This document shows, in pieces, positions 14,536-34,303 of a stretch of 56,029 bases of DNA. Numbering within the stretch: the stretch's first letter is position 1; the number at the start of each line of letters is the position of its first letter. The translations under genes and the position numbers were made by a program. The notes below the pieces were generated by a model. That model worked only from the letters and a program-made list of their open reading frames with translations, searched no databases and was not told the DNA's origin. The DNA lies in assembly GCA_049968235.1 (NCBI GenBank), contig JBMFRC010000021.1, positions 1 through 56,029 of the forward strand, written 5' to 3'. This DNA comes from Candidatus Hydrogenedens sp. (GTDB taxonomy: Bacteria > Hydrogenedentota > Hydrogenedentia > Hydrogenedentales > Hydrogenedentaceae).

Positions 14536-17445
14536 GTGAGAAAAAAATTAATTCGAATAATAAAATATACCATCATCAGCATTGCAATCTTCATATTCAT
14601 CATCATTATATCTCTTTTCGTTATTTGGTCACTATTTCTAATAAAAGATTCTGTATCTTTCAACCCTACAAAAAATATTTCCATTACTCTATCCGGTTTT
14701 TCTGTTTTTCCGAAGATTTCTCTAAAAAATGTGGCTATTCAGGTGAACGATTATAACACAGATGTGGAGTTTCAGAATATCCAGTTACAATCCTTTATAA
14801 AAAACCGACATATTTATATCGAAGCATGTAATATCTATATTGACACAACATTTCAACCCTCCCATACAACGAAAGAAGAAAGAAAATCTAATCAAAAAAA
14901 GGATGTCTTCAATTTCCAATCTTTTTTTACCTATTTACCTCAAAAATTATTTGTCAAAAACATTTCTGTATTTATTAAAAATACCGAAAGAACATTTTTT
15001 ATATCAGGTATCCCGCTTACAATAGATAATGCACAAAACCTTATTTCCTTTTCTTCTACAGATGCTGTTATGGGAATTGTCTATAATGGACAGAAAAAAT
15101 CTATCACAGGGACAGTTGATATATATTACAAATTCCTGCAGGATTCTCAGGAAATTGGAAGCAATATCCAGTTTTCACCTTACATGCTTGCTCGTGCAAA
15201 AGTAACTTTTGATAACACAACACAAAAAATTAACATGGAGGATATATATTTATCTCTTGATGAAAATGTATCTCAATCTTTGTCTCCATTGCTTCGTTCC
15301 GTGTTTTCTTTCCCGGTAGACTGGCAAAAAATTCAAATAAATAATCTTCATGGCAGTTTTTATTATCAAAACGCTCGATGGATACCCAAAAATATCAATG
15401 GTTATCTCTCCTGCTCTTCTCTAAAAATAGGAGATAAAGAAAAACCATGGCTCCACTATACCTCAGAGATTCATATACATTCCCAATATATAGAAAACGA
15501 AAAAATAACAGAAGTGGTGATGAATACGGATAAAGACCCTTTATGGGAAATGAACTGGAAATATAATCATGGGAACCAAAATACCTTTCTGGATTTTTCC
15601 TGCAGAACTATACAAGGAAAAACCATTCAGAATATATCGCCTTTTTTATACCATACTTTCTTATTAAAACAAATAGAGCCCTTTTCCGCAGAATGTTCTT
15701 TGTCTCTACAAGGGCTTTTCCCTGCTCTGGGAGGGAATATTCGAGGGAAATTGTCCCTTTTTGATGTTAATAATATACAACTCAATAGCAGTCTAAAAAT
15801 TTCACCATCCAATAATGGCTCTAACTCAATGAAATGGTCTGGAGATGTAAACATTTTATCCAACCCCATTCATTTTTCTGCGGAATTTACACCTCCTACC
15901 TCTTTTATATCCCATATTCATACAGAAAATCTGCCAACAAAATTTATACAATCGTTGACACCTTCTTTAGTAAAAAATGTATTCGACAAATCGCTTGCAG
16001 ATATGGATATTACAATTAAGGGGACCGATTGGAAAAATATGGATTTGCAATTCAAAGGGGAATTAACATCGGGAAACGAGGACGAGGAATATCTACCTAT
16101 TGTGCCGTCACAATTTCATTTTCAGGGAACAATTCAAAATTTAGATACTCTTGTTGGTGCTTTTCATCTATCTTCAGAGAATTCTGCCGATTTCGAGTTA
16201 AATCCTTGCACATTACATCTTTTCCCTTTATCACTGGAAGGCGATGTAAAAACAAAAGTTTATCTTTCAACGATTGCTTTAGAATTCATTCCTTTTTATA
16301 TTCCGGGCAAAGCAAGTTTTGGGGGGAAACTCTATTGGAATGGCGATTGGGGAATTAAGATTCAGGGGTCAGGTTCAGGAGAAGGCTTAGGAATAAACGG
16401 ATATACGCTTCCGGAAGGAATTCCTTTATGTTTCAATACCAATCTAACCGGGGATTTTTTAGATTATACCTGTGCGTTTGAAAATTTAAAATTGGGATTT
16501 GCAAATTGTGAATTGGGAAATATTCAAAAATGCAAGATACTTCTGCCCAAGGATAACCAGAATTTTACCCTAAACATTCAAAATCTGGACATTAAAGGGA
16601 AATTTGAGGATTTACATGATTGGGGAATTTCACAAGATAGTCAGGGAACATTCTATCTCTCAGTAAAGAATTTTGAATATAAGGATAACACGATTAATAG
16701 TGGGGAGATAGAATGGGATGTAAATATTACAAATTTAAGCATACCTACATGGCAAATACAAATAAATCATTTGATAACGCAATCCCAGACTCAAAATTTA
16801 ACGAATACAGATTTGACAACGAACATTAAAATAGACGAATTTACTTTGCAGAAAATAAAAGTGGCTCAAATAGAAAATAGATTGAAATTTCAATTACTAC
16901 CGCTTAAAGTAGAGATAACAAACATGAATGGGAATTTATGGAATGGCACATTTAATACACGGGGAACTCTTCAAAAAATAGAAGATTCATTAGTGGGAAA
17001 TATTATCGGTGAATATAGAGGTATTGATTTATCTCAATTCACAACAGAACTTCGCCCACCCTGGGTAAATCTATCCGGACGAGGCAATGGAAATTTTGAT
17101 GCCAATATTAACTTCACCACAGGGCAACTTGTCGAGGGAAATTTTAGTCTCGCATGTCCAGAAGGATTAACTATTAACCGAGATGTCCTGCTCCAGTTAA
17201 TCCTATATTTACAAAATGTCAGTATCGTTCAGAAGCAACTTGAAAAATTATTGGGAGAAGAAGACCCAAAACCATTTACAAACGGAGAATTAACTATAGG
17301 ATTTAAAGATAGTCAGGCAACGGTTTCCTTACTCCTAACAACGCCAAACATTAATTTAGCACCTATCTTTTATATCAATGCAGATTGGAAAACACTTTGG
17401 TCCCTTTTAACAACCCAATCTGGTGTCCAGATAGAAATCAAATAA
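14536..17445 (+). CDS. large membrane-anchored hypothetical protein (AsmA-like architecture guess)
   Basis: 969-aa ORF with a GTG start. It has an N-terminal transmembrane anchor (IISIAIFIFIIIISLFVIWSLFLI), then an Asn/Ile/Thr-rich beta-prone sequence with no catalytic motif I recognise. It is divergently transcribed from the hybrid HK. Confidence 0.5.
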   Translation: MRKKLIRIIKYTIISIAIFIFIIIISLFVIWSLFLIKDSVSFNPTKNISITLSGFSVFPKISLKNVAIQVNDYNTDVEFQNIQLQSFIKNRHIYIEACNIYIDTTFQPSHTTKEERKSNQKKDVFNFQSFFTYLPQKLFVKNISVFIKNTERTFFISGIPLTIDNAQNLISFSSTDAVMGIVYNGQKKSITGTVDIYYKFLQDSQEIGSNIQFSPYMLARAKVTFDNTTQKINMEDIYLSLDENVSQSLSPLLRSVFSFPVDWQKIQINNLHGSFYYQNARWIPKNINGYLSCSSLKIGDKEKPWLHYTSEIHIHSQYIENEKITEVVMNTDKDPLWEMNWKYNHGNQNTFLDFSCRTIQGKTIQNISPFLYHTFLLKQIEPFSAECSLSLQGLFPALGGNIRGKLSLFDVNNIQLNSSLKISPSNNGSNSMKWSGDVNILSNPIHFSAEFTPPTSFISHIHTENLPTKFIQSLTPSLVKNVFDKSLADMDITIKGTDWKNMDLQFKGELTSGNEDEEYLPIVPSQFHFQGTIQNLDTLVGAFHLSSENSADFELNPCTLHLFPLSLEGDVKTKVYLSTIALEFIPFYIPGKASFGGKLYWNGDWGIKIQGSGSGEGLGINGYTLPEGIPLCFNTNLTGDFLDYTCAFENLKLGFANCELGNIQKCKILLPKDNQNFTLNIQNLDIKGKFEDLHDWGISQDSQGTFYLSVKNFEYKDNTINSGEIEWDVNITNLSIPTWQIQINHLITQSQTQNLTNTDLTTNIKIDEFTLQKIKVAQIENRLKFQLLPLKVEITNMNGNLWNGTFNTRGTLQKIEDSLVGNIIGEYRGIDLSQFTTELRPPWVNLSGRGNGNFDANINFTTGQLVEGNFSLACPEGLTINRDVLLQLILYLQNVSIVQKQLEKLLGEEDPKPFTNGELTIGFKDSQATVSLLLTTPNINLAPIFYINADWKTLWSLLTTQSGVQIEIK

Positions 17446-17617
17446 CACCTATTTGAGTTAAATAAATGTACTTCCTGTATATTTTTAACACAATGTAAGA
17501 TATGTGATAACTATAAGGTATATCAATGATAAGAATAGGGCAGAACCGAATTAAAAAGCAAGAAAATAAAACATAATCACATAATTATGCATTACCTGAA
17601 TAGTAAAACTACTGAAG

Positions 17618-18384
17618 AATGAGACCTCTGAACAATTCGTGTAAGATGTTATGGTATAAGTTATATATGTTTTTACGAGATAAAATCCCGATGAGAAATT
17701 AACATACAAAAGTCTGTATCTCTACTTTTATCCATTTTATTTGCTATTTTCTGTCAGGTTTTTTATTTTCTTATTACCTATGTATATCTTTCCTCTTGCA
17801 CCCTTAATTCCCCATACATCCGCTTCAAATTATATGCAATCGTTAACAGGAAATGATATACTCCTCTCTATATGCACCTCTGTATCCTCTGTGCTCCTCC
17901 GTGTCCTCCGTAGTGAAAAAGATATAATCAACCAGAGAGACACAGAGAAATTATAACTCACTGCTCAACAATACATACAATAGTAAGGACAAAAGCCTCC
18001 ATTATTCCCAGTTCGCTTTATATACTCCTTTCTCTATTATGCACCTCTGCTCAAATTTCCTTCCATTCCATCACTTCTTGCATCTGCCTCAAAAAATATC
18101 TACGACAGATCAGTTTCTGATAGAACATCTCGTAATCTACAAAATCTCTTTGTTCTATCTCTATCTATAAAACTTATTTCCTCCATCTCTTATATACCAT
18201 ACTGCGAGGACCTTTCTTCATTTTTAGTTTTTCCTTGCTTTGTTATTCAAACCAATACAATACCTCTACAATATGTATATGCTATATCCATACACTTCTT
18301 TTTCTCATCTCGTCTCATCTTTTCCTGCCTACTTCTCGTATAAAACATATCTCATTAACCATATGATTTATCCAGAGGTCTCAG
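17618..18384 (+). repeat. MITE-like non-coding element, copy A (~767 bp), with 16-bp terminal inverted repeats TGAGACCTCTGAACAA / TTATCCAGAGGTCTCA
   Basis: Left terminus aaTGAGACCTCTGAACAAttcgtg at 17618. Right terminus ttTATCCAGAGGTCTCAgat ends at 18384. The interior is roughly 80% identical, with indels, to the reverse complement of 37918-38618. For example, cactgctcaacaatacatacaatagtaaggac and ctcttgcatctgcctcaaaa are shared. No conserved ORF is present and the top strand is pyrimidine-rich. Confidence 0.75.
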
Positions 18385-18538
18385 ATATGGATTTTGCAAA
18401 TGAATGCGAAGGATTTTTTCATCTATTAATTCTTTTTTTTCTGTCTCTCTGGTCCCATAACACGGATACGATAGTTATACACATATTTGCCCCCATGGAG
18501 GACAGTATTAATTAAACCTTTGTTTCCTGTTTCCCCCC

Positions 18539-20395
18539 TTATAATCCAGGGCAGTAGCGGTCTTCGCCGTCTGGACAAGGATGGTAGCCACCTATGTTAA
18601 AGTACTGGATTAACCGCAATAATTCGGATAGGTTTATCATCCAATCCTGAGGATTATAGTCTGATGCATGCGGTATGCAACTCTTATCCCCTTCAAATCC
18701 AGGAATATAGCCATCCTCTGACTCCTCTCCCGGCAAGGCACAATGATACCCTTGCATATTGAAAAACTGTATCACGCGTAATAACTCGGGTAGATTTATC
18801 TGCCAATCTCCATTTTGGTCTGCACTATGTGATGGTGTTTCCCCCTCGCCTTCAGTCATTCCTTCGCCTTCTACTGCTCCTTCCACGATACCTTCGCCAT
18901 CAGCACTACCTTCGGATATCCCTTCCGTTGTACCTTCGACGGTGCCTTCAACTGTCCCTTCGCCATCAGGGGTTCCTTCGAGAGTCCCTTCTGCGATACC
19001 TTCGCCTTCCATTACTCCTTCACCCTCGATAATTCCTTCGCCTTCAAAACTACCTTCGGATATACCTTCTGTGGTGCCTTCAAATGTCCCTTCGCCATCA
19101 GGGGTTCCTTCGCCTTCGGGTAAGGCAAGACAATCTGTTGGAATTTCGTCCGTATTACGGTTATCAACTGGGTCTAAATAATTCGGAATACCATCATTAT
19201 CTGAATCCCATGGTAACGGGTCATATACATCCCGAATGAGGTCGCAATCGTCGTCTAAATCATCCGGGTCCATCCAACCATCTTCATCAAGGTCGTCATA
19301 AGGTCGCATATATGGTGTAATTCCGATATCTGTGGTAAATATAAACTGTCCATTAGAAAAGTTAATCTCAATAAAGTATGCTTTCCACCCTGTTTCAGGT
19401 GGTATTACTGTTGCAAGATATGTTTTTGAACCGGGTGATGTTTCGCTTAAATTAGAAGATGTCCATGTTGGTCCTGCTCCATCGTAATAGCGGAAATCAC
19501 GAGCATTTGGATTTAGAGCCTGCCATAACTTTACAGAAGTTGGATTTGTTGCCACCTGCACCTGAATACTCCCATCGGGTAAAAATTGCCAGGAATAGTT
19601 AGGTCTGCTTCCGCCACTTGTAACAGAGTTAAAATAGGTAATAAGAGCAATAATACTATTGTAATCACTGGTTAGATTTTCCAGACTATGCCCCGAATTG
19701 GGGACATATCTTAAACGCTTTTCGCCGGGCAGTTCATTGTAATAAAAACGGGAAGAATCGGGTAGGAAAAATTCATCTCCACTGGCATTGATTATAAATT
19801 TTGGCATTGTATAGTTATTCAGGTAAGAATAGGGGTCTACAATCTGTCTCAGGGCATATCCTCCGGGGGTACTCATTCGTTCAAATATATGCAATTCATT
19901 ATAAGGGGTTAATCTCTCTGAGAAGAAGCCATAACATTTGTATTGATGGTCCATCTGAACATTCATCTTAAGGACATCAATTACAATGGGGACAATGGCA
20001 ATGACTCGTGAATCAACCGCTCCCGTTAGCCAAGTAGTCCAACCTCGTTTGGATGCACCCCCAATGACAAAACCACTTATTGTTTTGCCATGATTATTTA
20101 ATACAATCTCTTCGATAGTGTCCATGGCACGGACAGCACTTTTTACCATCGGCAAAAGGACAGGCCAGTAAGGGTCTGGTGTCCCTGCATTATAAGTTTG
20201 CAAATATTTATCAAAACTGTAAGCAATAATTTGGTCCTCTGTCCGACTAAGAGTCTCGTCTTTGAAAAGAAGCGGTTGATTGGGAACCTGTTCAAGTAAT
20301 GCAACAGGAGCACCGGTTAATATTGCAACATACTGAGCATAATCCCGAAGGTTAGTGGCGGAGGAGCCGTTGTTTCCTCCGGATATTATCAACAA
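18539..20395 (-). CDS. PhoPQ-activated pathogenicity-related (PqaA-family, alpha/beta-hydrolase-like) secreted protein with TSP3-like Ca-binding repeats, an (EGx)n linker and two C-terminal dockerin-like repeats; main body downstream of an in-frame TGA
   Basis: VIGGASKRGWTTWLTGAVD is the PqaA-family signature. Then come DDLDEDGWMDPDDLDDDCDL...DSDNDGIPNYLDPVDN (thrombospondin-type-3-like). About 35 Glu-Gly-x triplets follow, encoded by a 9-nt periodic DNA repeat at 18840-19140. Two dockerin-like segments close the protein: DQNGDWQINLPELLRVIQFFN and DYNPQDWMINLSELLRLIQYFN. The same frame continues upstream through TGA at 20447-20449 into ORF 20447-20671. Confidence 0.6.
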   Translation of the reverse strand: MLIISGGNNGSSATNLRDYAQYVAILTGAPVALLEQVPNQPLLFKDETLSRTEDQIIAYSFDKYLQTYNAGTPDPYWPVLLPMVKSAVRAMDTIEEIVLNNHGKTISGFVIGGASKRGWTTWLTGAVDSRVIAIVPIVIDVLKMNVQMDHQYKCYGFFSERLTPYNELHIFERMSTPGGYALRQIVDPYSYLNNYTMPKFIINASGDEFFLPDSSRFYYNELPGEKRLRYVPNSGHSLENLTSDYNSIIALITYFNSVTSGGSRPNYSWQFLPDGSIQVQVATNPTSVKLWQALNPNARDFRYYDGAGPTWTSSNLSETSPGSKTYLATVIPPETGWKAYFIEINFSNGQFIFTTDIGITPYMRPYDDLDEDGWMDPDDLDDDCDLIRDVYDPLPWDSDNDGIPNYLDPVDNRNTDEIPTDCLALPEGEGTPDGEGTFEGTTEGISEGSFEGEGIIEGEGVMEGEGIAEGTLEGTPDGEGTVEGTVEGTTEGISEGSADGEGIVEGAVEGEGMTEGEGETPSHSADQNGDWQINLPELLRVIQFFNMQGYHCALPGEESEDGYIPGFEGDKSCIPHASDYNPQDWMINLSELLRLIQYFNIGGYHPCPDGEDRYCPGL

Positions 20396-20446
20396 ACCTT
20401 TTGTTTTTGTTATCGAAGTAGGGACAATGATTGTTAGCCAGTGTTT

Positions 20447-20671
20447 TCATAATGTCCTATTAACTTCAGAAGAACTTCGCCAGGTCTGAGATGTAAGGTC
20501 CACCACATAGTAAGTATGAGTTATAGTATTCTCCTGTGATGTAATGGTATAAGTGTAGGAAGAGTCAGGCATGTTTACATAATCTTCTAAAGGACCTGCG
20601 TAAGCACAATAAGAAAAAAGAAATGAAAAAATGACAAATGAAAAATAACTTGCGAGATGGCTTTTGCGCAT
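20447..20671 (-). CDS. N-terminal fragment (signal peptide plus first PqaA-family block) of the 18539-20395 gene, separated from it by a single in-frame TGA
   Basis: MRKSHLASYFSFVIFSFLFSYCAYA signal peptide, then GPLEDYVNMPDSSYTYTI, which is typical of the PqaA-family N-terminus. Reading through the TGA gives ...NRTL*KHWLTIIVPTSITKTKGLLIISGGNNGSS... with no frame change. Confidence 0.5.
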   Translation of the reverse strand: MRKSHLASYFSFVIFSFLFSYCAYAGPLEDYVNMPDSSYTYTITSQENTITHTYYVVDLTSQTWRSSSEVNRTL

Positions 20672-20753
20672 TGGTAAACACCCTTATGTTATTCAAAGCA
20701 TTTTTAATAATTATACTATAAAATTAAGTTATAATGTCTTTTTTTCTTTTTAT

Positions 20754-20783
20754 TTGATATAAGTCCTATGAATTTGTTATAAT
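20754..20783 (+). promoter_or_regulatory. candidate sigma-70 promoter of the rpsB operon (TTGATA-N18-TATAAT)
   Basis: TTGATA at 20754-20759 and TATAAT at 20778-20783, about 120 nt upstream of the rpsB ATG. An imperfect hairpin (GGAGCC...GGCTCC, 20819-20870) lies in the leader. Confidence 0.35.
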
Positions 20784-20904
20784 TTTAACTCTTTATGAGA
20801 TTTTTAACAAAAACACAGGAGCCTCCCGCCTTTGTTTTGGGTGCTCATAAAAAATGAGTTCCAGCGGGCTCCAAGGTTAAACCCAAACAGATAAGGATAT
20901 AACT

Positions 20905-21783
20905 ATGTCAGTTGTAACCCCTCGTGAATTGCTTGAAGTAGGAGCGCATTTTGGTCATCAAACTCGCCGTTGGAACCCTAAAATGGCACGGTTCATTTAT
21001 GGTGAAAAGAATGGTATTTACATTATTGACCTGAAGCATACCCTTAAGCAGTTATATAAGGCGTATGCACTGGTTAGCGAAACCGTTGCCAATGGGGGAA
21101 CGGTTCTTTTCGTAGGCACAAAACGGCAGGCACAGGAAGCCATTAAACGTGAAGCGGAACGTTGTGGTATGTTCTATGTCAATAGCCGGTGGTTAGGCGG
21201 AACATTAACCAATTTCCGCACCATTCGAAGCAGTATTTCGGAATTACTCCGATTGAAGGATTTGGAAGAAACGGGCAAGATTGACCAATATGGTAAAAAG
21301 GAAGGGATTCAATTAAGAAAACGCATTGCTAAATTGGAAAAAAATCTCTGTGGTATTGTCAATATGATAGAGCCACCGAGTATTGTTTTCGTTGTGGATA
21401 CCAATCATGAAGAAATAGCGGTTCGTGAATCGGCACGATTGAAAATTCCGTGTATTGGCATTGTTGATACCAATGCGGACCCTGACGCAGTTTCCCTTCC
21501 GATTCCGGGAAATGATGATGCCATACGCTCTGTATCTCTCTATTGCAAAGTAATTGCGGATGCGGTATTAGAGGGTAAGAATATTCAGGAAAAGGGGTCT
21601 GCGACAGAGGCAAAGGTTAAGCCTATTTCCCGAAGAGTAAAGCGTGTAACTGATGAAGAGATAAAGCCTGTTGTATCTGTTTCTGAAGAAGATATGAAAG
21701 AAAATGAAGTAGAAGATGAAAGCACATCCTCTGATGAATCAGAAGAAATTCAACAAGAAACATCTGTAGTTGAAGAAAATTAA
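20905..21783 (+). CDS. rpsB: 30S ribosomal protein S2 (with acidic C-terminal tail)
   Basis: [43 protein letters not shown] is a canonical S2 N-terminus. The acidic Glu/Ser-rich C-terminal extension is unusual but in frame. Confidence 0.95.
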
Positions 21784-21810
21784 TTATTAATAAATACAGG
21801 AGAAGAATAA

Positions 21811-22485
21811 ATGAGTATTAGTGCGAGTGATGTAAAAAAATTAAGAGAACAAACCAATGCACCCATGATGGATTGTAAAAAAGCACTTATGGAGTGCGGT
21901 GGTGATATGGATAAAGCGGTCAAATGGTTGCGTGAGCGTGGAATTATGAAAGCGGCATCACGTGCAAATCGTGTTGCGGCGGAAGGGTGTATAGCTTCTT
22001 ATGTACACATGGGCGGGAAAATTGGAGTGCTTGTAGAAGTAAACTCAGAAACCGATTTTGTGGCTCGTGGTGCAGAATTTCAAACCTTTGTAAAAGATAT
22101 TTGCCTGCAAATATGTTCTTCCGCACCGAAATGGATTGGCAAAGAGGACATTCCTGCGGAAGCATTAGAAGAAGAAAAACAATTATATGTAAAGCAGGCT
22201 CTGGACACAGGCAAACCTCAGAATGTTTGTGAGAAGATAGCAGAAGGCAAATTGAACAAATGGTTCGAAGAAGTTTGCTTATTAGAACAAGTTTCAGTAA
22301 AGCCTGAACATGATGGTAAAAAGATAAAAGATTTATTAGGCGAATTAACCGCTAAGTGCGGTGAAAAGATAGAAATCCGACGCTTTGTTCGTTGGATTCT
22401 CGGTGAAGGTATCGAAAAGAAACAAACCAATTTTGCAGAGGAAGTTGCCGCAGAATTAGCGAAATCCGCCAATAAAGAGGCATAA
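21811..22485 (+). CDS. tsf: elongation factor Ts (short form)
   Basis: MSISASDVKKLREQTNAPMMDCKKALMECGGDMDKAVKWLRERG is a UBA-like EF-Ts N-terminus. It sits immediately downstream of rpsB, in conserved synteny. Confidence 0.9.
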   Translation: MSISASDVKKLREQTNAPMMDCKKALMECGGDMDKAVKWLRERGIMKAASRANRVAAEGCIASYVHMGGKIGVLVEVNSETDFVARGAEFQTFVKDICLQICSSAPKWIGKEDIPAEALEEEKQLYVKQALDTGKPQNVCEKIAEGKLNKWFEEVCLLEQVSVKPEHDGKKIKDLLGELTAKCGEKIEIRRFVRWILGEGIEKKQTNFAEEVAAELAKSANKEA

Positions 22486-22488
22486 AGA

Positions 22489-23208
22489 GTGAGTATTCCA
22501 ATTTACAAACGGGTATTATTAAAACTCAGTGGAAATGCTTTATCCTCAGATGGGGAGAATATAGGCTCAAAAGCATTAAGTCATCTATGTGATGAAGTTG
22601 CATCGGCATATAAGACCGGTGCTCAGATAGGATTGGTCGTAGGGGGTGGAAATATCCTTCGCGGAAATCAATGGTCAAAAGCATCTGGCGTCGACCGTGC
22701 TACCGCAGATTACATGGGAATGCTTGCTACCGTAATAAATGCTCTTGCCCTTCAATCTGCACTGGAAAAACATGGGCTTGAGACCAGGGTGCTTAGTGCT
22801 ATAGAGATGAGACCGGTGGCAGAACCTTACATAAGACGACGTGCTTTGCGACATTTAGAAAAAGGGCGAATTGTGATTTTTGCTGCAGGGACCGGAAATC
22901 CTTTCCTCACCACTGATACTGCTGCAGCATTACGTGCCAGTGAAATAGATGCAGATATATTGATGAAAGCCACGCGGGTAGATGGGGTTTATTCTGCGGA
23001 CCCGGAAAAAGACCCTACTGCCAGAAGATATGACCATTTAACTTATCAACAGGTTCTTTCACAGGACCTGAAAGTGATGGATGCAGCAGCAATATCTATT
23101 TGTCGTGAAAAGAACATACCTATTTTGGTATTCTCTTTCTTAGAAAAGAACTGTATTGTTCATGCGGTTTGTGGGAACTCTATTGGAACTATAGTTAAGG
23201 GAGATTAA
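22489..23208 (+). CDS. pyrH: UMP kinase
   Basis: [31 protein letters not shown]...[10 protein letters not shown] is the UMP kinase signature. The rpsB-tsf-pyrH-frr order is conserved. Confidence 0.9.
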
Positions 23209-23211
23209 CCT

Positions 23212-23769
23212 ATGTCACACCCACTTATTAAAGAAGCCGAACAAAAAATGGATAAAAGTGTGGAAAGTTTGCAACAAGAACTCTCTGGCTTTCGCACAGG
23301 AAGAGCTACACCTACCTTATTAGATGTTGTTCATGTGGATGCGTATGGCAGTAAAATGAAGATTAATCAATTAGGAAATGTAACTGTCCCGGATTCTCAT
23401 CTTATCGTTATTGACCTCTGGGATAAATCACTTATCGGTGCTGTGGAAAAAGCGATTATGGCTTCACCGCTTGGTGTAAATCCATCGAATGATGGCAGAT
23501 TAATTCGCATACCTATTCCTCCTCTGAGTGAAGAGCGTCGTAAAGAACTTACAAAGGTTGCCAATAAAATGGCAGAAGAAGCCCGTGTTGCTGTTCGCAA
23601 TATTCGCCGTCATATTTTAGAAACCCTGAAAAAAGAGCAGAAAGACGGCAAGATAACCGAAGATGACCTGCATCGCCTTTCAGATGAAGTCCAGAAACTC
23701 ACCGATAAACATATTGAAAAAATAGACCAGGTTCTTAAAGCCAAAGAAAAAGACATAATGGAAGGCTGA
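23212..23769 (+). CDS. frr: ribosome recycling factor
   Basis: 185 aa with ...SGFRTGRATPTLLDVVHVDAYGSKMKINQLGNVTVPD... as the RRF fold signature. The stop is TGA. Confidence 0.9.
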   Translation: MSHPLIKEAEQKMDKSVESLQQELSGFRTGRATPTLLDVVHVDAYGSKMKINQLGNVTVPDSHLIVIDLWDKSLIGAVEKAIMASPLGVNPSNDGRLIRIPIPPLSEERRKELTKVANKMAEEARVAVRNIRRHILETLKKEQKDGKITEDDLHRLSDEVQKLTDKHIEKIDQVLKAKEKDIMEG

Positions 23770-23834
23770 ACTTCTATTTATCCTCTGACAATTTTACAGT
23801 TATTATCTGAACATTCAAATCAGGTTTTATATCC

Positions 23835-24614
23835 ATGCGAAAACTTCCTGCGGACTTAGACCCCCGAGTTAATGTAGAGCGGTTACCCCGACATATTGCT
23901 GTTATTATGGATGGCAATGGTCGCTGGGCAAAACGTCACGGGAAGAAAACGACCGAAGGGCATGAAGCAGGAACAGAAGGGGTGCGGGAAGTATTAAAGG
24001 GTTGCCGTGAGTTAGAGATTCCGTGCCTTTCTCTATATGCTTTTTCAACAGAAAATTGGTCTCGTCCCAAGGAAGAAGTAGATTCCCTCTTCCAATTAAT
24101 GAGTAAATATATCCGCAAAGAAATTGATGAGATAAATAAATATGGTATCCGTGTATTGTTTATGGGCGAATGGAGAGAATTACCTTCAACCGCTGTGCGG
24201 GACCTCGAATATTGTCTGGAACAAACCCGAGATAATAGAGATATGACCGTTGTCGTAGGATTAAATTACGGGGGAAGGCAGGAAATACTTCGCTGTGCCA
24301 AAATAATGGCAGAAAAAGTTCAAAAAGGCGAATTGCTACCAGAGGAAATTACTGAAAGTCTTTTTAATCAACATTTATATATACCTGAATTTCCCGATGT
24401 TGACCTTTTAATCCGCACCAGTGGAGAACAACGGGTTAGTAATTTTATGCTATGGCAGTTATCTTATGCGGAGATGGTCTTTTTGCCTGTTCTCTGGCCA
24501 GACTTTCGGCGAAAACATCTCTGGGAAGCCATAGTTCATTACCAGCAAAGGGAACGACGATTTGGCTCCCGTACAGATGAAACAGACCCTGGTGCATCGG
24601 AAATTCATACCTGA
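23835..24614 (+). CDS. uppS: isoprenyl transferase / undecaprenyl-diphosphate synthase
   Basis: HIAVIMDGNGRWAKRHG...YAFSTENWSRPKEEV...LIRTSGEQRVSNFMLWQLSYAEMVF are cis-prenyltransferase motifs. The stop is TGA. Confidence 0.9.
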   Translation: MRKLPADLDPRVNVERLPRHIAVIMDGNGRWAKRHGKKTTEGHEAGTEGVREVLKGCRELEIPCLSLYAFSTENWSRPKEEVDSLFQLMSKYIRKEIDEINKYGIRVLFMGEWRELPSTAVRDLEYCLEQTRDNRDMTVVVGLNYGGRQEILRCAKIMAEKVQKGELLPEEITESLFNQHLYIPEFPDVDLLIRTSGEQRVSNFMLWQLSYAEMVFLPVLWPDFRRKHLWEAIVHYQQRERRFGSRTDETDPGASEIHT

Positions 24615-24637
24615 ACATCGAAGAGAGGAAGCCCCCT

Positions 24638-25444
24638 GTGTTTCAGCGAATTATTACAGGAAGTATTTTAGTTATACTCACCGCCATCCTCATCTGGGTG
24701 CCGGGCTTGCATATTCCTTTGGGTATTTTTATCGCCTGTTTAACCACAATTGCTGTCCGTGAATACTTCCACATCGTTGAACCTGCTAATAAAAATATTC
24801 TCAGTATCCTAACTTTAGGGCTCGTTCCTCTCACTGTACTAACAGGAATTTTGCATACTCTTATTATGCTACATCTGTTTTTTATTCTTTCTTTTGGGCT
24901 TTTATCCATTATCTATACATTCAACAGAACTACTTCTATAAATAAATTTGCACATTCATTCTTCGGGCTATTTTATTTTGGTTGGGTCCCTGCACATCTG
25001 TTAATACTTCATAAGACACCCGGAGGTCCCGGACTAATAACCCTGTTTATTACCGCAGTGGCTCTATGCGATTCAGGTGCGTATTGTATTGGAAAACTTT
25101 TTGGGAAACACGCCCTTGCTCCGGAGATTAGTCCTAATAAGACCTGGGAAGGAAGTATGGGTGGGATTATTTTCAGTACCGTTGGGACTTTTGTTCTCTG
25201 GATATTGCATAAAGCCATTTTTACACAATTCTTGCCTGTTCGGAGTATTGGTTTTTATCTCCAATGGGGTATAATACTTGCCATATTAAGCCAATTCGGT
25301 GATTTGTTAGAATCACGATGGAAACGGGAAGTAGGTATTAAAGACTCCGGAACTATTTTCCCGGGACATGGGGGTGTTCTTGACCGCTGTGATGGGATGT
25401 TATTTGCCTTTCCGTTCTTCTTTTATTTAATAAAATTTTTATAA
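24638..25444 (+). CDS. cdsA: phosphatidate cytidylyltransferase
   Basis: Multi-TM protein with the C-terminal CdsA signature ...SQFGDLLESRWKREVGIKDSGTIFPGHGGVLDRCDGMLFAFP. Confidence 0.85.
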   Translation: MFQRIITGSILVILTAILIWVPGLHIPLGIFIACLTTIAVREYFHIVEPANKNILSILTLGLVPLTVLTGILHTLIMLHLFFILSFGLLSIIYTFNRTTSINKFAHSFFGLFYFGWVPAHLLILHKTPGGPGLITLFITAVALCDSGAYCIGKLFGKHALAPEISPNKTWEGSMGGIIFSTVGTFVLWILHKAIFTQFLPVRSIGFYLQWGIILAILSQFGDLLESRWKREVGIKDSGTIFPGHGGVLDRCDGMLFAFPFFFYLIKFL

Positions 25445-25479
25445 CATTGTTTTGAGGATTAAGGAATTTTGAATTTGTT

Positions 25480-26595
25480 ATGTATGAATTAGAAATACAA
25501 GCGATAGAAAACTTAAAACAGCGATTGGTAGAACTCCGTACCTGCTTGAATGTAGAAGGGATACAGGAACGAATTGCGAAGTTGGAACGGAGTATGGAAG
25601 ATTCGGAGTTCTGGAATGACCCCGAACAGGCACAAAAAGTTTTGCAGGAGATTAAGAATTTAAAAACAGTTATAGAAACCCCGGAAACACTTCAGAAAGA
25701 ACTGGAAGATGCGGAAGCATTTGTTCGTATGGCTGAAGAGGAAGCGGATATATCCCTTCAATTGGAAATACAGCAGTTGAAAGATAGGTTAGAAAAAGAA
25801 GTTCATCAATTGGAAATCAAAAGCCTATTCATAGACCCGCGAGATACCAAACCCGCTATTGTTAGTTTTCATCCGGGGGCAGGTGGAACGGAATCTTGCG
25901 ATTGGGCACAAATGCTTTATCGCATGATTACACGATACTGTGAAGAGAAAGGTTTTACCGTTGAATTAATAGATTATCAACCGGGGGAAGAGGCGGGTAT
26001 TAAAAGTGCCACGCTACGGGTGTCTGGTCTTTATGCATACGGTTTATTAAAATCCGAAAGTGGTGTGCATCGTCTCGTCCGTATTTCCCCATTCGATGCA
26101 AATAAGAGACGGCATACCTCTTTTACTGCCATTGAGGTGCTTTCAGAGGTAGATGACGATATAAAGATAGAAATTCGTGAAGAAGATATAAAAATGGATA
26201 CTTTCCGTTCCAGTGGTGCAGGCGGACAGAAAGTAAATAAAACCAGTTCAGCTGTCCGACTAACACATGTGCCCACAGGTTTCGTCGTTACCTGTCAAAT
26301 TGAGCGTTCACAACACCGCAATCGTGCTACTGCACTACAAATGCTCAAAGCGAAGTTGTATGATATTGAGATGAAAAAAAAGGAAGCAGAAGTTTTCGCT
26401 CAAAGAGAAGGACAAACGGAAGTTGCCTGGGGTAATCAGATTCGAAGTTATATCCTTCAACCTTATCAACTGGTTAAAGACCATAGAACCGGTGCGGAAA
26501 CCAGTAATGTAGATAGGGTTTTGGATGGAGATTTAGATATATTTGTAGAAGCTTACTTAAAATGGAATTTAGAAAAGAAAGGTGTGGGAATCTAA
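25480..26595 (+). CDS. prfB: peptide chain release factor 2, encoded in a single continuous frame (no programmed +1 frameshift site)
   Basis: SPF tripeptide (RISPFDANKRRHTSF) and GGQ (SSGAGGQKVNKTSSAVRLTHVPTG). The N-terminus MYELEIQAIENLKQRLVELRTCLNVEG is contiguous with the body. No CTT-TGA-C shifty site is present. Confidence 0.9.
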   Translation: MYELEIQAIENLKQRLVELRTCLNVEGIQERIAKLERSMEDSEFWNDPEQAQKVLQEIKNLKTVIETPETLQKELEDAEAFVRMAEEEADISLQLEIQQLKDRLEKEVHQLEIKSLFIDPRDTKPAIVSFHPGAGGTESCDWAQMLYRMITRYCEEKGFTVELIDYQPGEEAGIKSATLRVSGLYAYGLLKSESGVHRLVRISPFDANKRRHTSFTAIEVLSEVDDDIKIEIREEDIKMDTFRSSGAGGQKVNKTSSAVRLTHVPTGFVVTCQIERSQHRNRATALQMLKAKLYDIEMKKKEAEVFAQREGQTEVAWGNQIRSYILQPYQLVKDHRTGAETSNVDRVLDGDLDIFVEAYLKWNLEKKGVGI

Positions 26596-26597
26596 CT

Positions 26598-28103
26598 ATG
26601 GATGAACAATTCAAAGAACACTCTACTTTACAGGAATTACGCGAAAATCGTATTCGCAAAATGAACCATTTCCGTGAACGCGGAGATAATCCTTATAAAT
26701 ATATCTTTCACCGAAGTGCTATCGTATCAACAATTCGAGAACAATTTGAAAAGGTAGAACAGGAACAACCCGAACAGGCACAGGAGGGAATCCCGGCAAT
26801 GCTGGCGGGTCGTATTACTGCACGAAGAGAGCAAGGGAAAAGCACTTTTATGGACCTGCGTGATGAAAGCGGTCGCATCCAATTATTCTTCGGTGAAAAA
26901 CAGGTAGGTGAAGATAAGTATGAATTTTTGAAAGATTTTGATTTAGGTGATTTTATCGGTGTCGAGGGTCTTGTCCGAAGAACAAAACGGGGGGAAATAA
27001 CTCTTTTTGTAAAAGAATTCCAGATTTTAACCAAGTCCTTACGCTCTTTACCGGAAAAGTTTCATGGTTTAACAGATGTAGAGACCCGCTATCGTCAACG
27101 GTATCTTGACCTCGTAGCCAATCCCGAAGTGATGAAAATCTTCCAAAAGCGCACAAAGATGATTGATGCTATTCGCACCTATCTGAAAGAACGCAATTTT
27201 TTAGAGGTCGAGACACCTATGCTTCATCCGATACCGGGAGGTGCTACAGCACGACCGTTTATCACACATCATAACGCATACGATACGGACCTCTATTTAC
27301 GCATTGCTCCTGAACTTTATTTGAAACGACTTATTGTAGGTGGATTTGAGCGTGTATTTGAGATTAACCGCTGCTTCCGTAATGAAGGTGTGGATACAAA
27401 ACATAATCCGGAATTTACCATCATGGAACTCTATGAAGCGTATCAAGATTACTTAGGATTAATGGAAGAAACGGAAGATTTGTTCTACACTGTAATGACT
27501 CAGATTATTGGAGCAGAGAATTTTACCTATCAAGAACAAGAAATTTCATTGACCCGTCCCTGGAAGCGTATTCCTTTGCATGAAGCCATTCGTCAATTTG
27601 CAGGAATTGACCTGGAAGCAACAAGAGACCGTGATAAAGCCAAACAGTTAGCAGAAGAAGTCGGTGTAGAGATTCGTCCCGAAATGGGTTATGGTAAAAT
27701 TGTTGACGAAGTAATGTCTGTTAAAGTGAAACCCCATCTTATTCAACCGACTTTCCTTTATGATTATCCTATTGAAATATCTCCGCTGGCAAAGAGAAAA
27801 CGTGATAACCCAGCATTGACAGAACGCTACCAGTTATTTATCGGTGGATTAGAAGTATGTAATGCCTTTTCAGAATTGAACGACCCCTTAGACCAGAGAG
27901 AACGATTCATGGAACAGGTACGCCTGCGCGAAGCAGGAGACGATGAAGCCCAATACCTCGATGAGGATTTCCTGACCGCATTGGAAGTGGGTATGCCTCC
28001 AACAGCGGGATTAGGTATCGGAATTGACCGACTGGCTATGCTTTGCACGAACTCGTCATCCATTCGTGATGTAATTCTGTTTCCCTTACTTAGAAAACTG
28101 TAA
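26598..28103 (+). CDS. lysS: lysine--tRNA ligase (class II)
   Basis: Anticodon-binding OB fold, then class-II motifs (...FLEVETPMLHPIPGGATARPF..., ...CFRNEGVDTKHNPEFTIMELY..., ...GMPPTAGLGIGIDRLAML...). ATG 26598, directly after the prfB TAA, is preferred over the track start 26562, which would overlap prfB. Confidence 0.9.
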   Translation: MDEQFKEHSTLQELRENRIRKMNHFRERGDNPYKYIFHRSAIVSTIREQFEKVEQEQPEQAQEGIPAMLAGRITARREQGKSTFMDLRDESGRIQLFFGEKQVGEDKYEFLKDFDLGDFIGVEGLVRRTKRGEITLFVKEFQILTKSLRSLPEKFHGLTDVETRYRQRYLDLVANPEVMKIFQKRTKMIDAIRTYLKERNFLEVETPMLHPIPGGATARPFITHHNAYDTDLYLRIAPELYLKRLIVGGFERVFEINRCFRNEGVDTKHNPEFTIMELYEAYQDYLGLMEETEDLFYTVMTQIIGAENFTYQEQEISLTRPWKRIPLHEAIRQFAGIDLEATRDRDKAKQLAEEVGVEIRPEMGYGKIVDEVMSVKVKPHLIQPTFLYDYPIEISPLAKRKRDNPALTERYQLFIGGLEVCNAFSELNDPLDQRERFMEQVRLREAGDDEAQYLDEDFLTALEVGMPPTAGLGIGIDRLAMLCTNSSSIRDVILFPLLRKL

Positions 28104-28125
28104 ATCGCAATATAGGAAGATCCCC

Positions 28126-29379
28126 TTGAAATTCGAAACCTTTGTAGCCCTGCGATATTTGAGAAGCAAGCGGAGAAACCGCTTCATTAGTCTTATCTCG
28201 ATTATATCTATTGCAGGCGTCAGTGTCGGTGTTATAACACTAATTATTGTCATGAGTGTGATGACAGGTTTCGATATTGCCCTTCGAGAAACGATTATCG
28301 GGAATCGCTCTCATTTGAGTATTTATGAAATAGGGGGAAAAATTCAGGATTACGAAAGTATTATAGAAAAGATAGAAGCAATATGCCCAGAAATTGTTGC
28401 CAGTGGACCAATTATTCAGGTGGAGGCTTTGTTTAAGAATGGGGAATACACCACCGGCGGACTTATTTTAGGTGTAGACCCGGAGCGAGAAAGTAAAGTA
28501 ACAGACCTTGCAAAGAATTTGACCGAAGAAGGAGGGCGTCTTTTTGGAAAAGGGAAACTCCCCAAAGAAAAAGAAATTGTTTTAGGGTATCGATTAGCAA
28601 ATCGCATTTCTGCACGATTGGGTTCGCAATTGCAGATAGTAACAGCACGTGCTATTATTCGTCCTTTCCTGGGTAGACAGTTGGGGTCGCAACTTTGGCT
28701 TACCGTAAGTGGTATATCCCATGCACGAATGTCAGAGTTTGATGAAGTGTATGCCTTTGTAGATTTGCCCACCGCCTACATGCTAACCGGTGAAAAAGGA
28801 GTGGATGCTATCCATGTAAAATTAACAAATCCATTTCTTGCGGATGTTGTAGCACGACGCATTCGGGAAAATTTAGGCTACCAAACGAAAACATGGTATG
28901 AGGACCAGCAGGCATTTTTTGACGCACTACGACAGGAAAAATTAGCCATGTTTATCATTTTAGCGTTCATTATTCTTGTTGCTGCATTCAATATTACCAG
29001 CACACTCATTATGATTGTTATGGAGAAACGACGGGACATCGGTATCCTTCGCACCTTAGGTGCCAGTACTAACTCTATATTATTAACTTTCATACTTCAG
29101 GGGTTATTCATCGGAGTTATCGGCACAGTTATAGGATTGTGCATAGGTATCGTTCTTGCATGGAACATAAACCCAATAGCCCAATTTATTGCAAAATTAC
29201 TCGGTTGGGACTTATTCAACAGCACTATTTATTACTTTGAAGGGATACCTGTTGCAATTGTTCCTTTTGATGTCATGTGTATAGCCATTTCTGCTGTATT
29301 ATTAACTTTCCTTTCAACCTTATATCCTGCATACAGCGCAGCGAGGATTAATCCGGTGGATGCAATACGATATGAATAA
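28126..29379 (+). CDS. lolC: lipoprotein-releasing system permease (LolC/LolE family, FtsX-like)
   Basis: MKFETFVALRYLRSKRRNRFISLISIISIAGVSVGVITLIIVMSVMTGFD is the LolC/E N-terminus. It has four TM segments with a large periplasmic loop. TTG start with AGGAAG RBS. Confidence 0.8.
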   Translation: MKFETFVALRYLRSKRRNRFISLISIISIAGVSVGVITLIIVMSVMTGFDIALRETIIGNRSHLSIYEIGGKIQDYESIIEKIEAICPEIVASGPIIQVEALFKNGEYTTGGLILGVDPERESKVTDLAKNLTEEGGRLFGKGKLPKEKEIVLGYRLANRISARLGSQLQIVTARAIIRPFLGRQLGSQLWLTVSGISHARMSEFDEVYAFVDLPTAYMLTGEKGVDAIHVKLTNPFLADVVARRIRENLGYQTKTWYEDQQAFFDALRQEKLAMFIILAFIILVAAFNITSTLIMIVMEKRRDIGILRTLGASTNSILLTFILQGLFIGVIGTVIGLCIGIVLAWNINPIAQFIAKLLGWDLFNSTIYYFEGIPVAIVPFDVMCIAISAVLLTFLSTLYPAYSAARINPVDAIRYE

Positions 29380-34246: not shown

Positions 34247-34303
34247 GGTATGTTTATAGTATGATGAATAAAATATAGAGATGAAATACCCTTTGTTAAT
34301 TCC

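What the first reader, a model, noticed from the sequence alone, without database searches (positions are those of the whole stretch)
20395..20671. Single in-frame TGA splits a PqaA-family secreted hydrolase gene into signal-peptide and body ORFs
Translation from ATG 20671 gives a signal peptide and the conserved N-terminal block. Then comes TGA (20447-20449) followed by A. The same frame runs on as KHWLTIIVPTSITKTKGLLIISGG... into the 618-aa body. TGA is a genuine stop elsewhere in this window (frr, uppS and the sensor HK end in TGA). An intact non-frameshifted prfB (RF2, which reads UGA) is present. Code reassignment is therefore unlikely. Either this is a fresh nonsense mutation or it is context-dependent readthrough of a leaky UGA-A.
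Basis: partly seen in the sequence, partly recalled or inferred. Interest (0 to 1): 0.5.

Follow-up and report, generated by a model that had tools for sequence, protein, structure and literature searches.

The report
Fresh nonsense mutation in PqaA hydrolase gene
A single G-to-A change has turned an invariant tryptophan codon (TGG) into a TGA stop in a secreted hydrolase gene of one Candidatus Hydrogenedens strain, while a 99.9%-identical sister genome still has TGG, so this is an ordinary recent gene-breaking variant and not a recoding signal.

Summary
On the minus strand, ATG 20671 opens a 74-codon ORF that ends at TGA 20449..20447. The same frame runs 635 more codons to TAA 18539. Joined, the two pieces match Pfam PF10142 (PhoPQ_related/PqaA) end to end (E 1e-118).

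The TGA replaces a Trp that is invariant in 120 of 120 homologues. A sister MAG (GCA_049971155.1), 99.86% identical over 10.7 kb, has TGG there.

TGA is a real stop in this organism:
- frr and uppS end on TGA-A at their natural ends.
- RF2 is intact (SPF and GGQ motifs).
- No other gene in the window is split by TGA.
- No SECIS-like structure follows the stop.

The gene was under strong purifying selection until recently (dN/dS 0.06-0.09 on both sides of the stop). Across about 28 kb, the window differs from two near-clonal MAGs at 12 sites, 9 of them nonsynonymous. That is the signature of young, unpurged variants.

Best reading: a recent strain-level TGG>TGA nonsense allele, either loss of function or strongly reduced function. 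A consensus error cannot be excluded without reads.

One twist: the tRNA-Trp(CCA) of 67/67 Hydrogenedentota-type loci retrieved carries a G27/A43 mismatch, giving a 4-bp anticodon stem. Unpairing of that pair has been reported to raise UGA readthrough. Some wild-type protein could therefore still be made, but this is untested.

The parts
20450..20671 (-). N-terminal fragment ORF of pqaA, codons 1-74. It holds the signal peptide and the first two beta-strands of the hydrolase domain.
   Evidence: ORF list and translation. It matches Pfam PF10142 positions 1-44. Strands 40-48 and 52-63 appear in the AlphaFold2 model of the intact sister protein.
20597..20671 (-). Predicted Sec signal peptide, residues 1-25: MRK n-region, hydrophobic core, AYA|G cleavage motif.
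   Evidence: Read directly from the translation. Homologues carry comparable N-terminal signal sequences. No signal-peptide predictor was available, so this is inference.
20681..20685 (-). Shine-Dalgarno-like AAGGG, 9 nt upstream of ATG 20671.
   Evidence: Sequence. The 235 nt upstream of the start are identical in the sister MAG.
20447..20449 (-). In-frame TGA at codon 75. It derives from TGG (Trp) by a G>A transition at 20447 on the coding strand.
   Evidence: The sister MAG L001 has TGG, as do L002, L003 and L004. Trp is invariant in 120/120 homologues.
18539..20446 (-). Rest of pqaA in the same frame: codons 76-710 plus the TAA stop. It holds the remainder of the alpha/beta-hydrolase domain and the C-terminal acidic and repeat region.
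19490..20590 (-). PF10142 (PhoPQ_related) domain, residues 28-394 of the joined protein. It spans the stop codon.
   Evidence: hmmscan: 396.3 bits, profile positions 1-367/367.
20051..20053 (-). Codon for Ser207 in the invariant G-x-S-K-R-G-W motif, the likely nucleophile. It lies downstream of the stop.
   Evidence: Invariant columns S207, D299 and H328. The alpha/beta-hydrolase fold is nearest to CE7 esterases. The catalytic role is inferred from the fold and was not tested.
19403..19405 (-). Second derived change in the same gene: codon 423 ACA>ATA (Thr>Ile), at a variable position of the family.
   Evidence: P0001, P0002 and P0003 have Thr.
18542..19309 (-). C-terminal extension, residues about 455-710. 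It has Asp-rich DxDxDG-like stretches, a low-complexity (E/T)G(E/T)G linker and two Cys-containing repeats of about 45 aa (DWxINL.ELLR.IQ.FN.GGYH.C). It has no Pfam match.
   Evidence: Translation. Pfam reports only PF10142. pLDDT is below 50 from residue 460. A 12-bp repeat-unit indel relative to L001 lies at about 19082.
25480..26595 (+). Context only: intact prfB (RF2) as a single ORF without the programmed +1 frameshift.
   Evidence: TIGR00020 515.7 bits (cut-off 370), profile positions 1-353/353. SPF and GGQ motifs are present.

Best explanation
The gene encodes a secreted PqaA-family (PF10142) alpha/beta-hydrolase of a Candidatus Hydrogenedens strain. In this strain one G>A transition has changed the invariant Trp75 codon TGG to TGA.

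Shown:
- UGA is read as stop by an intact RF2 in this organism.
- The change is strain-specific and very recent.

Inferred:
- Translation from ATG 20671 mostly ends after 74 residues. The product is a signal peptide plus two beta-strands. It lacks the third core strand and the Ser207/Asp299/His328 residues.
- The downstream 635 codons have no signal peptide and no credible start of their own, so they are essentially not expressed as a working enzyme.
- The allele is therefore a null or strong hypomorph. It is one of several young, mostly nonsynonymous variants that selection has not yet removed from a near-clonal population.
- Any residual full-length protein would come from unprogrammed near-cognate decoding of UGA by tRNA-Trp(CCA). 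That would restore the exact wild-type sequence.
For: - Anatomy and domain continuity across the stop are established.
- The sister MAG contig L001 (GCA_049971155.1) is 99.86% identical over 10,686 bp, with 3 substitutions. One of them is TGG/TGA at 20447.
- L002, L003 and L004, at 83-85% DNA identity, also have TGG.
- Trp is invariant in 120/120 homologues.
- dN/dS against L002 and L004 is 0.06-0.09, both upstream and downstream of the stop.
- TGA is a genuine stop. It ends 7/39 long ORFs. frr matches its profile to position 175/176 and ends on TGA-A.
- RF2 is intact.
- No other gene in the window is split by TGA.
- No structured RNA follows the stop.
- The model places W75 at the start of strand 74-84, with the invariant S207, D299 and H328 downstream.
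- Population context: 12 substitution sites lie in about 28 kb shared with two near-clonal MAGs. Nine are nonsynonymous, 2 synonymous and 1 intergenic. Three alleles are shared between the window and one sister MAG, so real segregating variation exists.
Against: - No reads are available, so a consensus or sequencing error at 20447 cannot be excluded.
- The TGA allele was found in no other public contig.
- At 10 of the 12 sites the window carries A/T. This fits natural AT-biased mutation, but it also fits deamination-type errors.
- Loss of function is inferred from the structure model and was not measured.
- The phylum's 4-bp anticodon-stem tRNA-Trp could make UGA leakier than assumed.
Confidence: 0.66

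Rival explanations
1. Assembly or sequencing artefact. The organism really has TGG, and the A at 20447 is a consensus error or a minority allele picked up by the assembler.
For: - It is a single-base substitution seen in one assembly only. Exact-pattern scans for either allele found no other copy.
- At 10 of 12 differences from the sister MAGs the window carries A/T, a spectrum also produced by cytosine deamination damage.
- 9 of 11 coding differences are nonsynonymous, as expected for random errors.
Against: - Several variant alleles are shared between the window and one of two independent sister assemblies (23307, 38701, 41594). The population therefore carries real SNPs at this density, about 1 per 2-4 kb.
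- One window-unique change is A>G and one is a transversion, so the spectrum is not purely deamination-like.
- No common sequence motif surrounds the sites.
- High N/S ratios are normal among near-clonal genomes (established knowledge).
Confidence: 0.2
2. Tolerated leaky stop. UGA75 is decoded as Trp at a physiologically useful rate by the native tRNA-Trp(CCA). In Hydrogenedentota this tRNA has an unpaired G27/A43 at the top of the anticodon stem. The strain would then still secrete a reduced amount of exactly wild-type enzyme, and the allele would be nearly neutral.
For: - PMC13092985 reports that only the 4-bp anticodon-stem tRNA-Trp(CCA) was found in Hydrogenedentota. It also reports that an unpinned 27:43 pair raises UGA readthrough in E. 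coli reporters.
- Here, 67 of 68 loci retrieved with a pattern that left positions 27 and 43 free carry G27/A43. Among them are Ca. Hydrogenedens terephthalaticus (L021) and the low-GC, Hydrogenedens-like loci L057, L014 and L037.
- The lost residue is Trp, so readthrough would restore the native protein.
- UGA is the leakiest bacterial stop, at about 6% in B. subtilis according to PMC7918605.
Against: - RF2 is intact, and UGA-A terminates essential genes such as frr and uppS here.
- PMC13092985 itself concludes that RF2 must outcompete this tRNA in such genomes.
- There is no stimulatory context or structure.
- No second in-frame TGA at a conserved Trp turned up in about 100 kb of low-GC Hydrogenedens-like DNA (a weak test).
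- TGG>TGA is the commonest transition route to a TGA nonsense codon, so 'stop at a Trp codon' is not itself evidence.
- The tRNA-Trp of this very genome was not seen, because the window holds no tRNA.
Confidence: 0.11
3. Programmed recoding or an altered code: selenocysteine insertion, UGA=Trp or Gly reassignment, or a conserved regulatory readthrough site. A related alternative is two genuinely separate genes.
For: Only that the reading frame stays open for 635 codons after the TGA.
Against: - The homologous residue is Trp, not Cys or Sec, in 120/120 sequences.
- There is no hairpin after the UGA.
- RF2 is present, and TGA ends genes at their natural ends.
- Only one split gene occurs in 56 kb.
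- The stop is absent from the 99.86%-identical sister and from all orthologues.
- One Pfam domain spans both pieces, and the body ORF lacks a signal peptide.
Confidence: 0.03

Closest known systems
PqaA / PhoPQ_related family (Pfam PF10142), secreted alpha/beta-hydrolases of unknown substrate
   Same: The joined protein gives a full-length profile match (1-367/367, E 1e-118). It has a signal peptide and all the invariant motifs: SQxWR, W-x-HWL, GxSKRGWTTW, GDxFF and N-x-x-H. Gene order next to rpsB-tsf-pyrH-frr is conserved in its Hydrogenedens orthologues.
   Different: The reading frame is interrupted at codon 75. It also carries a long C-terminal acidic and repeat extension that has no Pfam match. 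The extension differs from its closest orthologues, which have a PASTA domain there.
Ordinary nonsense-mutation pseudogenes and strain-level loss-of-function polymorphisms in bacteria
   Same: It is a single transition from a sense codon that is retained in the nearest relatives. There is no other damage to the gene. It is accompanied by other young nonsynonymous variants.
   Different: Nothing essential differs. The only unusual point is the host's tRNA-Trp architecture.
Near-cognate UGA suppression by tRNA-Trp(CCA) with a 4-bp anticodon stem (PMC13092985; Hirsh-suppressor-like behaviour)
   Same: The host phylum carries tRNA-Trp(CCA) with an unpaired 27:43 (G/A) in 67/67 Hydrogenedentota-type loci retrieved. 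The affected codon was Trp.
   Different: Those cases concern genome-wide UGA=Trp reassignment or reporter assays. Here UGA is a normal stop, RF2 is present, and there is a single, non-conserved in-frame UGA. No readthrough has been shown.
CE7 acetyl-xylan esterases / cephalosporin C deacetylases (e.g. TM0077, PDB 5fdf, 1vlq, 1ods)
   Same: These are the best fold matches of the model of the intact protein: Foldseek E about 2e-11, TM about 0.6 on the target. They share the Ser-Asp-His alpha/beta-hydrolase core.
   Different: Identity is only about 14%. The sequence search finds only weak carboxylesterase hits (E about 5e-4). PqaA proteins have an extra C-terminal beta-sandwich (residues about 359-452) and are secreted. 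Substrate and oligomeric state are unknown.

Membership tests
PF10142 PhoPQ_related / PqaA family | Match to the family profile above the gathering threshold over the whole domain | tested here: met
   396.3 bits against a cut-off of 20.3, profile positions 1-367/367 for the joined translation. 7976 homologues were found.
PF10142 PhoPQ_related / PqaA family | Uninterrupted reading frame encoding the domain (a functional member) | tested here: not met
   TGA at codon 75 lies inside the domain. All 120 listed homologues have Trp there.
Recent nonsense-mutation allele (pseudogene or hypomorph) | The sense codon is retained at the same site in the closest relatives and is one substitution away | tested here: met
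   TGG in L001 (99.86% identical) and in L002, L003 and L004.
Recent nonsense-mutation allele (pseudogene or hypomorph) | The truncated product lacks essential parts, and the downstream piece has no start or export signal of its own | tested here: met
   Only strands 40-48 and 52-63 precede the stop. S207, D299 and H328 follow it. The first in-frame start, TTG 20395, lies inside core strand 91-98, and no signal peptide follows it. That function is actually lost is inference.
Recent nonsense-mutation allele (pseudogene or hypomorph) | The variant is real in the DNA of the organism (read support) | not testable with these tools
   No reads are available. No second contig with the TGA allele was found.
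Programmed stop-codon readthrough | The stop codon is conserved at the site among orthologues | tested here: not met
   0 of 120 homologues and 0 of 4 orthologous loci carry a stop there.
Programmed stop-codon readthrough | A distinctive 3' context or stimulatory RNA structure | tested here: not met
   The fold of 20370..20470 gives z = -0.34. TGA-A is also the context of the genuine stops of frr, uppS and ORF 1586..2110.
Selenoprotein gene (bacterial UGA-Sec) | A SECIS hairpin directly downstream of the UGA, and Cys or Sec at the homologous position | tested here: not met
   No significant structure. The homologous residue is always Trp. No tRNA-Sec lies in the window.
UGA reassignment (genetic codes 4 or 25) | Loss of RF2, and many in-frame UGAs at conserved positions | tested here: not met
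   RF2 is intact. 7/39 long ORFs end on TGA. Only one gene is split.
Near-cognate UGA suppression by 4-bp anticodon-stem tRNA-Trp(CCA) | tRNA-Trp(CCA) with an unpaired 27:43 in the organism | tested here: inconclusive
   G27/A43 is present in 67/67 Hydrogenedentota-type loci. They include Ca. Hydrogenedens terephthalaticus (L021) and three other loci of about 38-40% GC, like the window: L057, L014 and L037. The window itself has no tRNA gene, so this genome's own tRNA-Trp was not seen.
Near-cognate UGA suppression by 4-bp anticodon-stem tRNA-Trp(CCA) | Measurable insertion of Trp at the UGA | not testable with these tools
   This needs proteomics, ribosome profiling or a reporter assay.

The most novel reading that the evidence does not exclude
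In Hydrogenedentota, the phylum-wide G27/A43 (4-bp anticodon stem) tRNA-Trp(CCA) may make UGA noticeably leaky for Trp. TGG>TGA changes such as this one would then be only mildly deleterious and could segregate in populations as hypomorphic alleles rather than nulls. That would be a natural intermediate on the road to UGA=Trp reassignment, caught in a free-living lineage that still has RF2.
Probability: 0.12. Interest if true: 0.55.

Novelty: already known. Interest (0 to 1): 0.17.

Why it matters
Taken at face value, it matters little. One strain of an uncultured Hydrogenedens population has probably lost, or strongly reduced, one secreted hydrolase of unknown substrate. The practical lesson is for annotation: the two ORFs should be reported as one disrupted pqaA gene, not as two genes and not as a recoding event.

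The finding gains some value only as a pointer. It lies in the one phylum reported to have exclusively 4-bp anticodon-stem tRNA-Trp. A systematic count of TGA-at-Trp against TAG-at-Trp variants across Hydrogenedentota genomes would be a cheap natural test of whether that tRNA really leaks on UGA in vivo.

Tried and rejected
**Searches for another copy of either allele**
- Exact-pattern scans for the 33-mer around the stop, with R at the variable base, found nothing in genome contigs or metagenome contigs.
- Exact-product look-ups of the 74-aa and 618-aa fragments found nothing.
- Look-ups of rpsB, the 838-aa kinase and a 309-aa protein also found nothing. The rpsB failure is odd, because L001 encodes the same 292-aa product.

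**The third near-clonal MAG**
- I tried to obtain the pqaA allele of GCA_049969095.1. Its contig L077 ends inside rpsB, about 940 bp short of the pqaA start codon, so its allele stays unknown.

**RNA genes and structures**
- Rfam at gathering threshold on the whole window found nothing.
- Rfam by E-value on 17400..18600 found nothing.
- ARAGORN found no tRNA in the window or in L001-L004.

**Selenocysteine, readthrough structure and context**
- The RNA fold is not different from shuffled sequence.
- The promoter and terminator scan is no better than shuffled sequence.

**A wider test for in-frame stops aligned to sense codons**
- I scanned about 480 kb of Hydrogenedentota loci.
- The result is dominated by spurious alternative-frame ORFs in high-GC, syntenic DNA, so it cannot be used quantitatively.
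- Among the low-GC, Hydrogenedens-like loci, only the window's pqaA showed TGA aligned to Trp.

**SNP clustering and spectrum**
- Two of two window-derived changes in the L001 overlap fall in pqaA. The naive p is about 0.02, but the test is post hoc.
- With more overlap the variants spread over several genes, so I do not claim special relaxation or targeting of pqaA.
- An apparent 6/6 GC>AT bias weakened to 10/12 with more data.
Full report
**1. The observation**

On the minus strand, ATG 20671 opens an ORF of 74 codons. It is preceded by AAGGG 9 nt upstream. The ORF encodes MRKSHLASYFSFVIFSFLFSYCAYA|GPLEDY...NRTL and ends at TGA 20449..20447, followed by A. The same frame continues as KHWLTIIVPTSITKTKGLLIISGG... 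for 635 codons to TAA 18539. The first possible in-frame start of this second piece is TTG 20395.

With the stop masked, the 710-residue translation matches Pfam PF10142 (PhoPQ_related, the PqaA family) over the whole profile: positions 1-367 of 367, 396 bits, E 1.4e-118. The 74-residue piece alone covers profile positions 1-44.

**2. What the codon was**

A search of the large protein collection returned 7976 homologues. Three are close:
- P0001, a partial protein of a Candidatus Hydrogenedens sp. MAG, 100% identical to the query.
- P0002, 84% identical.
- P0003, 81% identical.

All of them read ...NRTLWKHWLTII.... In a MAFFT alignment of the 120 listed homologues the column is Trp in 120 of 120. 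It sits in a block of invariant residues: S-Q-x-W-R ... E-V-D/N-R-x-x-W-x-H-W-L.

At DNA level, contig L001 (GCA_049971155.1, JBMFLO010000059.1) aligns to window 29708..19035 at 99.86% identity. There are three substitutions and one 12-bp repeat-unit indel. One substitution is TGG in L001 against TGA in the window, at 20447. L002, L003 and L004 (83-85% DNA identity) also have TGG. The 235 nt upstream of the start codon are identical in L001.

The event is a single G>A transition on the coding strand at the third base of the only Trp codon.

**3. Is UGA a stop in this organism?**

Yes, on four counts.
- Seven of 39 long ORFs end in TGA. They include frr, whose product matches TIGR00496 to position 175 of 176, as well as uppS, lipB and a ZraS-like sensor kinase.
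- The gene at 25480..26595 is RF2: TIGR00020 515.7 bits against a cut-off of 370, profile positions 1-353 of 353 in one frame. It carries the SPF tripeptide and GGQ.
- When TGA is treated as sense, the only real gene that fuses is pqaA, as segments of 78 and 636 codons. The other fusions are antisense frames or neighbouring genes.
- The window holds no tRNA or Rfam feature.

Code reassignment is excluded as far as a 56-kb window allows.

**4. Is the stop programmed?**

No sign of it.
- The 101 nt around and after the UGA fold no better than shuffled sequence (-14.3 kcal/mol, z = -0.34), so there is no SECIS-like hairpin.
- The homologous residue is never Cys.
- The 3' context A is shared by three of the seven genuine TGA stops, including frr and uppS. 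'UGA-A' is therefore an ordinary terminator context here.
- The stop is absent from every relative examined.

**5. How old is it?**

Nei-Gojobori estimates against L002 and L004 give dN/dS of 0.06-0.09. For codons 1-74 the value is 0.089, and for codons 76-470 it is 0.057-0.060. The gene was under strong purifying selection along the lineage leading to the window, and both halves still look like a working gene. The disruption is very recent.

**6. Population context**

Exact-product look-ups recovered further contigs of two near-clonal MAGs whose accession prefixes are adjacent:
- GCA_049971155.1: L001, L073 and L075.
- GCA_049969095.1: L074 and L077.

Together they cover about 28 kb of the window. 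The window differs from one or both at 12 sites. Nine are nonsynonymous: W75*, T423I in pqaA, S214L and G248S in a sensor kinase, D129N, V358I, S329P, D86N and S44R. Two are synonymous and one is intergenic.

Three alleles (23307, 38701, 41594) are shared between the window and only one of the two sisters. Real variation therefore segregates at about one site per 2-4 kb. At 10 of the 12 sites the window carries A or T.

A high nonsynonymous fraction and an AT-directed spectrum are what one expects of very young variants that selection has not yet purged in an AT-rich genome (38% GC). The same pattern is also compatible with some consensus errors. The nonsense codon is one member of this class and not an isolated oddity.

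The contig of the second sister MAG ends inside rpsB, so its pqaA allele is unknown.

**7. What the truncation does (inference)**

An AlphaFold2 model of the intact sister protein has mean pLDDT 76, and most 10-residue blocks of the domain reach 85-97. It shows an alpha/beta-hydrolase core followed by a beta-sandwich.

Foldseek against the PDB puts it nearest to CE7 acetyl-xylan esterases and cephalosporin C deacetylases: E about 2e-11, TM about 0.6 on the target, about 14% identity. Sequence-only comparison gives just weak carboxylesterase hits.

Strands 40-48 and 52-63 precede the stop, and Trp75 opens strand 74-84. The invariant Ser207 (in G-A-S-K-R-G-W), Asp299 and His328 all lie downstream.

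The 74-residue product is a signal peptide plus a beta-hairpin. A restart at TTG 20395 would begin inside core strand 91-98, without an export signal and without three strands of the sheet. I therefore expect a null or near-null allele.

**8. The one interesting wrinkle**

The close relatives are labelled Candidatus Hydrogenedens. A 2026 survey (PMC13092985) states that in Hydrogenedentota only tRNA-Trp(CCA) with a 4-bp anticodon stem was found. It also reports that unpairing the 27:43 pair raises UGA readthrough in E. coli reporters, while noting that RF2 must normally outcompete this tRNA.

I checked this independently. A scan of one genome per species used the anticodon arm plus T arm, leaving position 43 free and position 27 outside the pattern. 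It returned 68 loci.
- 67 have G27/A43.
- The single T27:A43 locus (L066) is labelled Acidobacteriota.
- The 67 include Ca. Hydrogenedens terephthalaticus (L021) and three other loci of about 38-40% GC, like the window: L057, L014 and L037.
- ARAGORN calls these four tRNA-Trp(cca).

Near-cognate decoding of UGA75 would insert Trp and so give the exact wild-type protein. It may also be more frequent here than in typical bacteria.

This remains a possibility only, for four reasons.
- This genome's own tRNA-Trp was not seen.
- UGA-A terminates essential genes in the same window.
- TGG>TGA is the commonest transition route to a TGA nonsense codon, so the coincidence with Trp carries no weight.
- I found no second TGA-at-Trp case in the roughly 100 kb of low-GC, Hydrogenedens-like DNA in hand. 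The broader scan was too noisy to use.

**9. Verdict**

The best explanation is a recent, strain-level TGG>TGA nonsense allele of a secreted PqaA-family hydrolase (confidence about 0.66). The rivals are:
- a consensus or sequencing artefact (about 0.20);
- a tolerated leaky stop read by the phylum's unusual tRNA-Trp (about 0.11);
- programmed recoding, selenocysteine, an altered code or two separate genes, all effectively excluded (about 0.03).

This is a known kind of event and of low intrinsic interest. Its only wider use is as a prompt for a phylum-wide comparison of TGA-at-Trp and TAG-at-Trp variants.

Noticed in passing
L005-L072 (tRNA-Trp loci), e.g. L021 6539-6614, L057 7347-7422: 67 of 68 loci retrieved with a Hydrogenedentota tRNA-Trp pattern carry a G27/A43 mismatch (4-bp anticodon stem), with 44 nt of the anticodon arm, variable loop and T arm almost invariant. 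The single T27:A43 exception (L066) is labelled Acidobacteriota. This independently confirms the claim of PMC13092985 for the phylum.
   Followed up: yes
L007, L018, L026, L028, L037, L039, L041, L045, L062-L064, L068: Several 'binchicken' and SRP co-assembly MAGs titled uncultured Nitrospirales or Nitrospiraceae carry the Hydrogenedentota-type tRNA-Trp. One MAG titled Verrucomicrobia (L013) does too. These could be mislabelled bins or contaminating contigs.
   Followed up: no
window 25480-26595 (+): prfB (RF2) is a single uninterrupted ORF. It lacks the programmed +1 frameshift site with an in-frame UGA that autoregulates RF2 in many bacteria. The orthologues in L001 and L002 are also called as single 371-aa genes.
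   Followed up: partly
window 19035-47283 compared with L001, L073, L074, L075 and L077: The window and two near-clonal MAGs (GCA_049971155.1, GCA_049969095.1) differ at 12 sites in about 28 kb. Nine are nonsynonymous, and at 10 of 12 the window carries A/T. Three alleles are shared between the window and only one of the two sister MAGs, which suggests segregating variation or recombination within one population.
   Followed up: partly
window 18542-19309 (-): The C-terminal 250 residues of the PqaA protein have no Pfam match. They consist of Asp-rich DxDxDG-like stretches, a long (E/T)G(E/T)G low-complexity linker and two Cys-containing repeats of about 45 residues (DWxINL.ELLR.IQ.FN.GGYH.C). 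The 81-84%-identical orthologues P0002 and P0003 have a PASTA domain inserted here. A 12-bp repeat-unit indel relative to L001 lies near 19082.
   Followed up: no
window 17446-18538: A 1.1-kb stretch between the convergent 969-aa ORF (14536..17445) and the end of pqaA has no ORF of 100 aa or more and no Rfam match (E up to 0.1). Synteny with L002 ends at the 3' end of pqaA.
   Followed up: partly
window 14536-17445 (+): This 969-aa ORF next to pqaA has no NCBIfam match at E up to 1e-5.
   Followed up: no
window 32909-35614 (+): A ZraS-like sensor kinase and a sigma-54-dependent response regulator lie in the same frame. The kinase ends in TGA, and two more in-frame TGAs follow within 7 codons. 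This is a run of tandem UGA stops and not a fused gene.
   Followed up: partly
window 20905-21783 (+) / L001 7926-8804: The exact-product look-up of the 292-aa RpsB returned 'not on record', although L001 encodes the same product from identical DNA. The look-up index appears to be incomplete, so negative look-ups should not be over-read.
   Followed up: no
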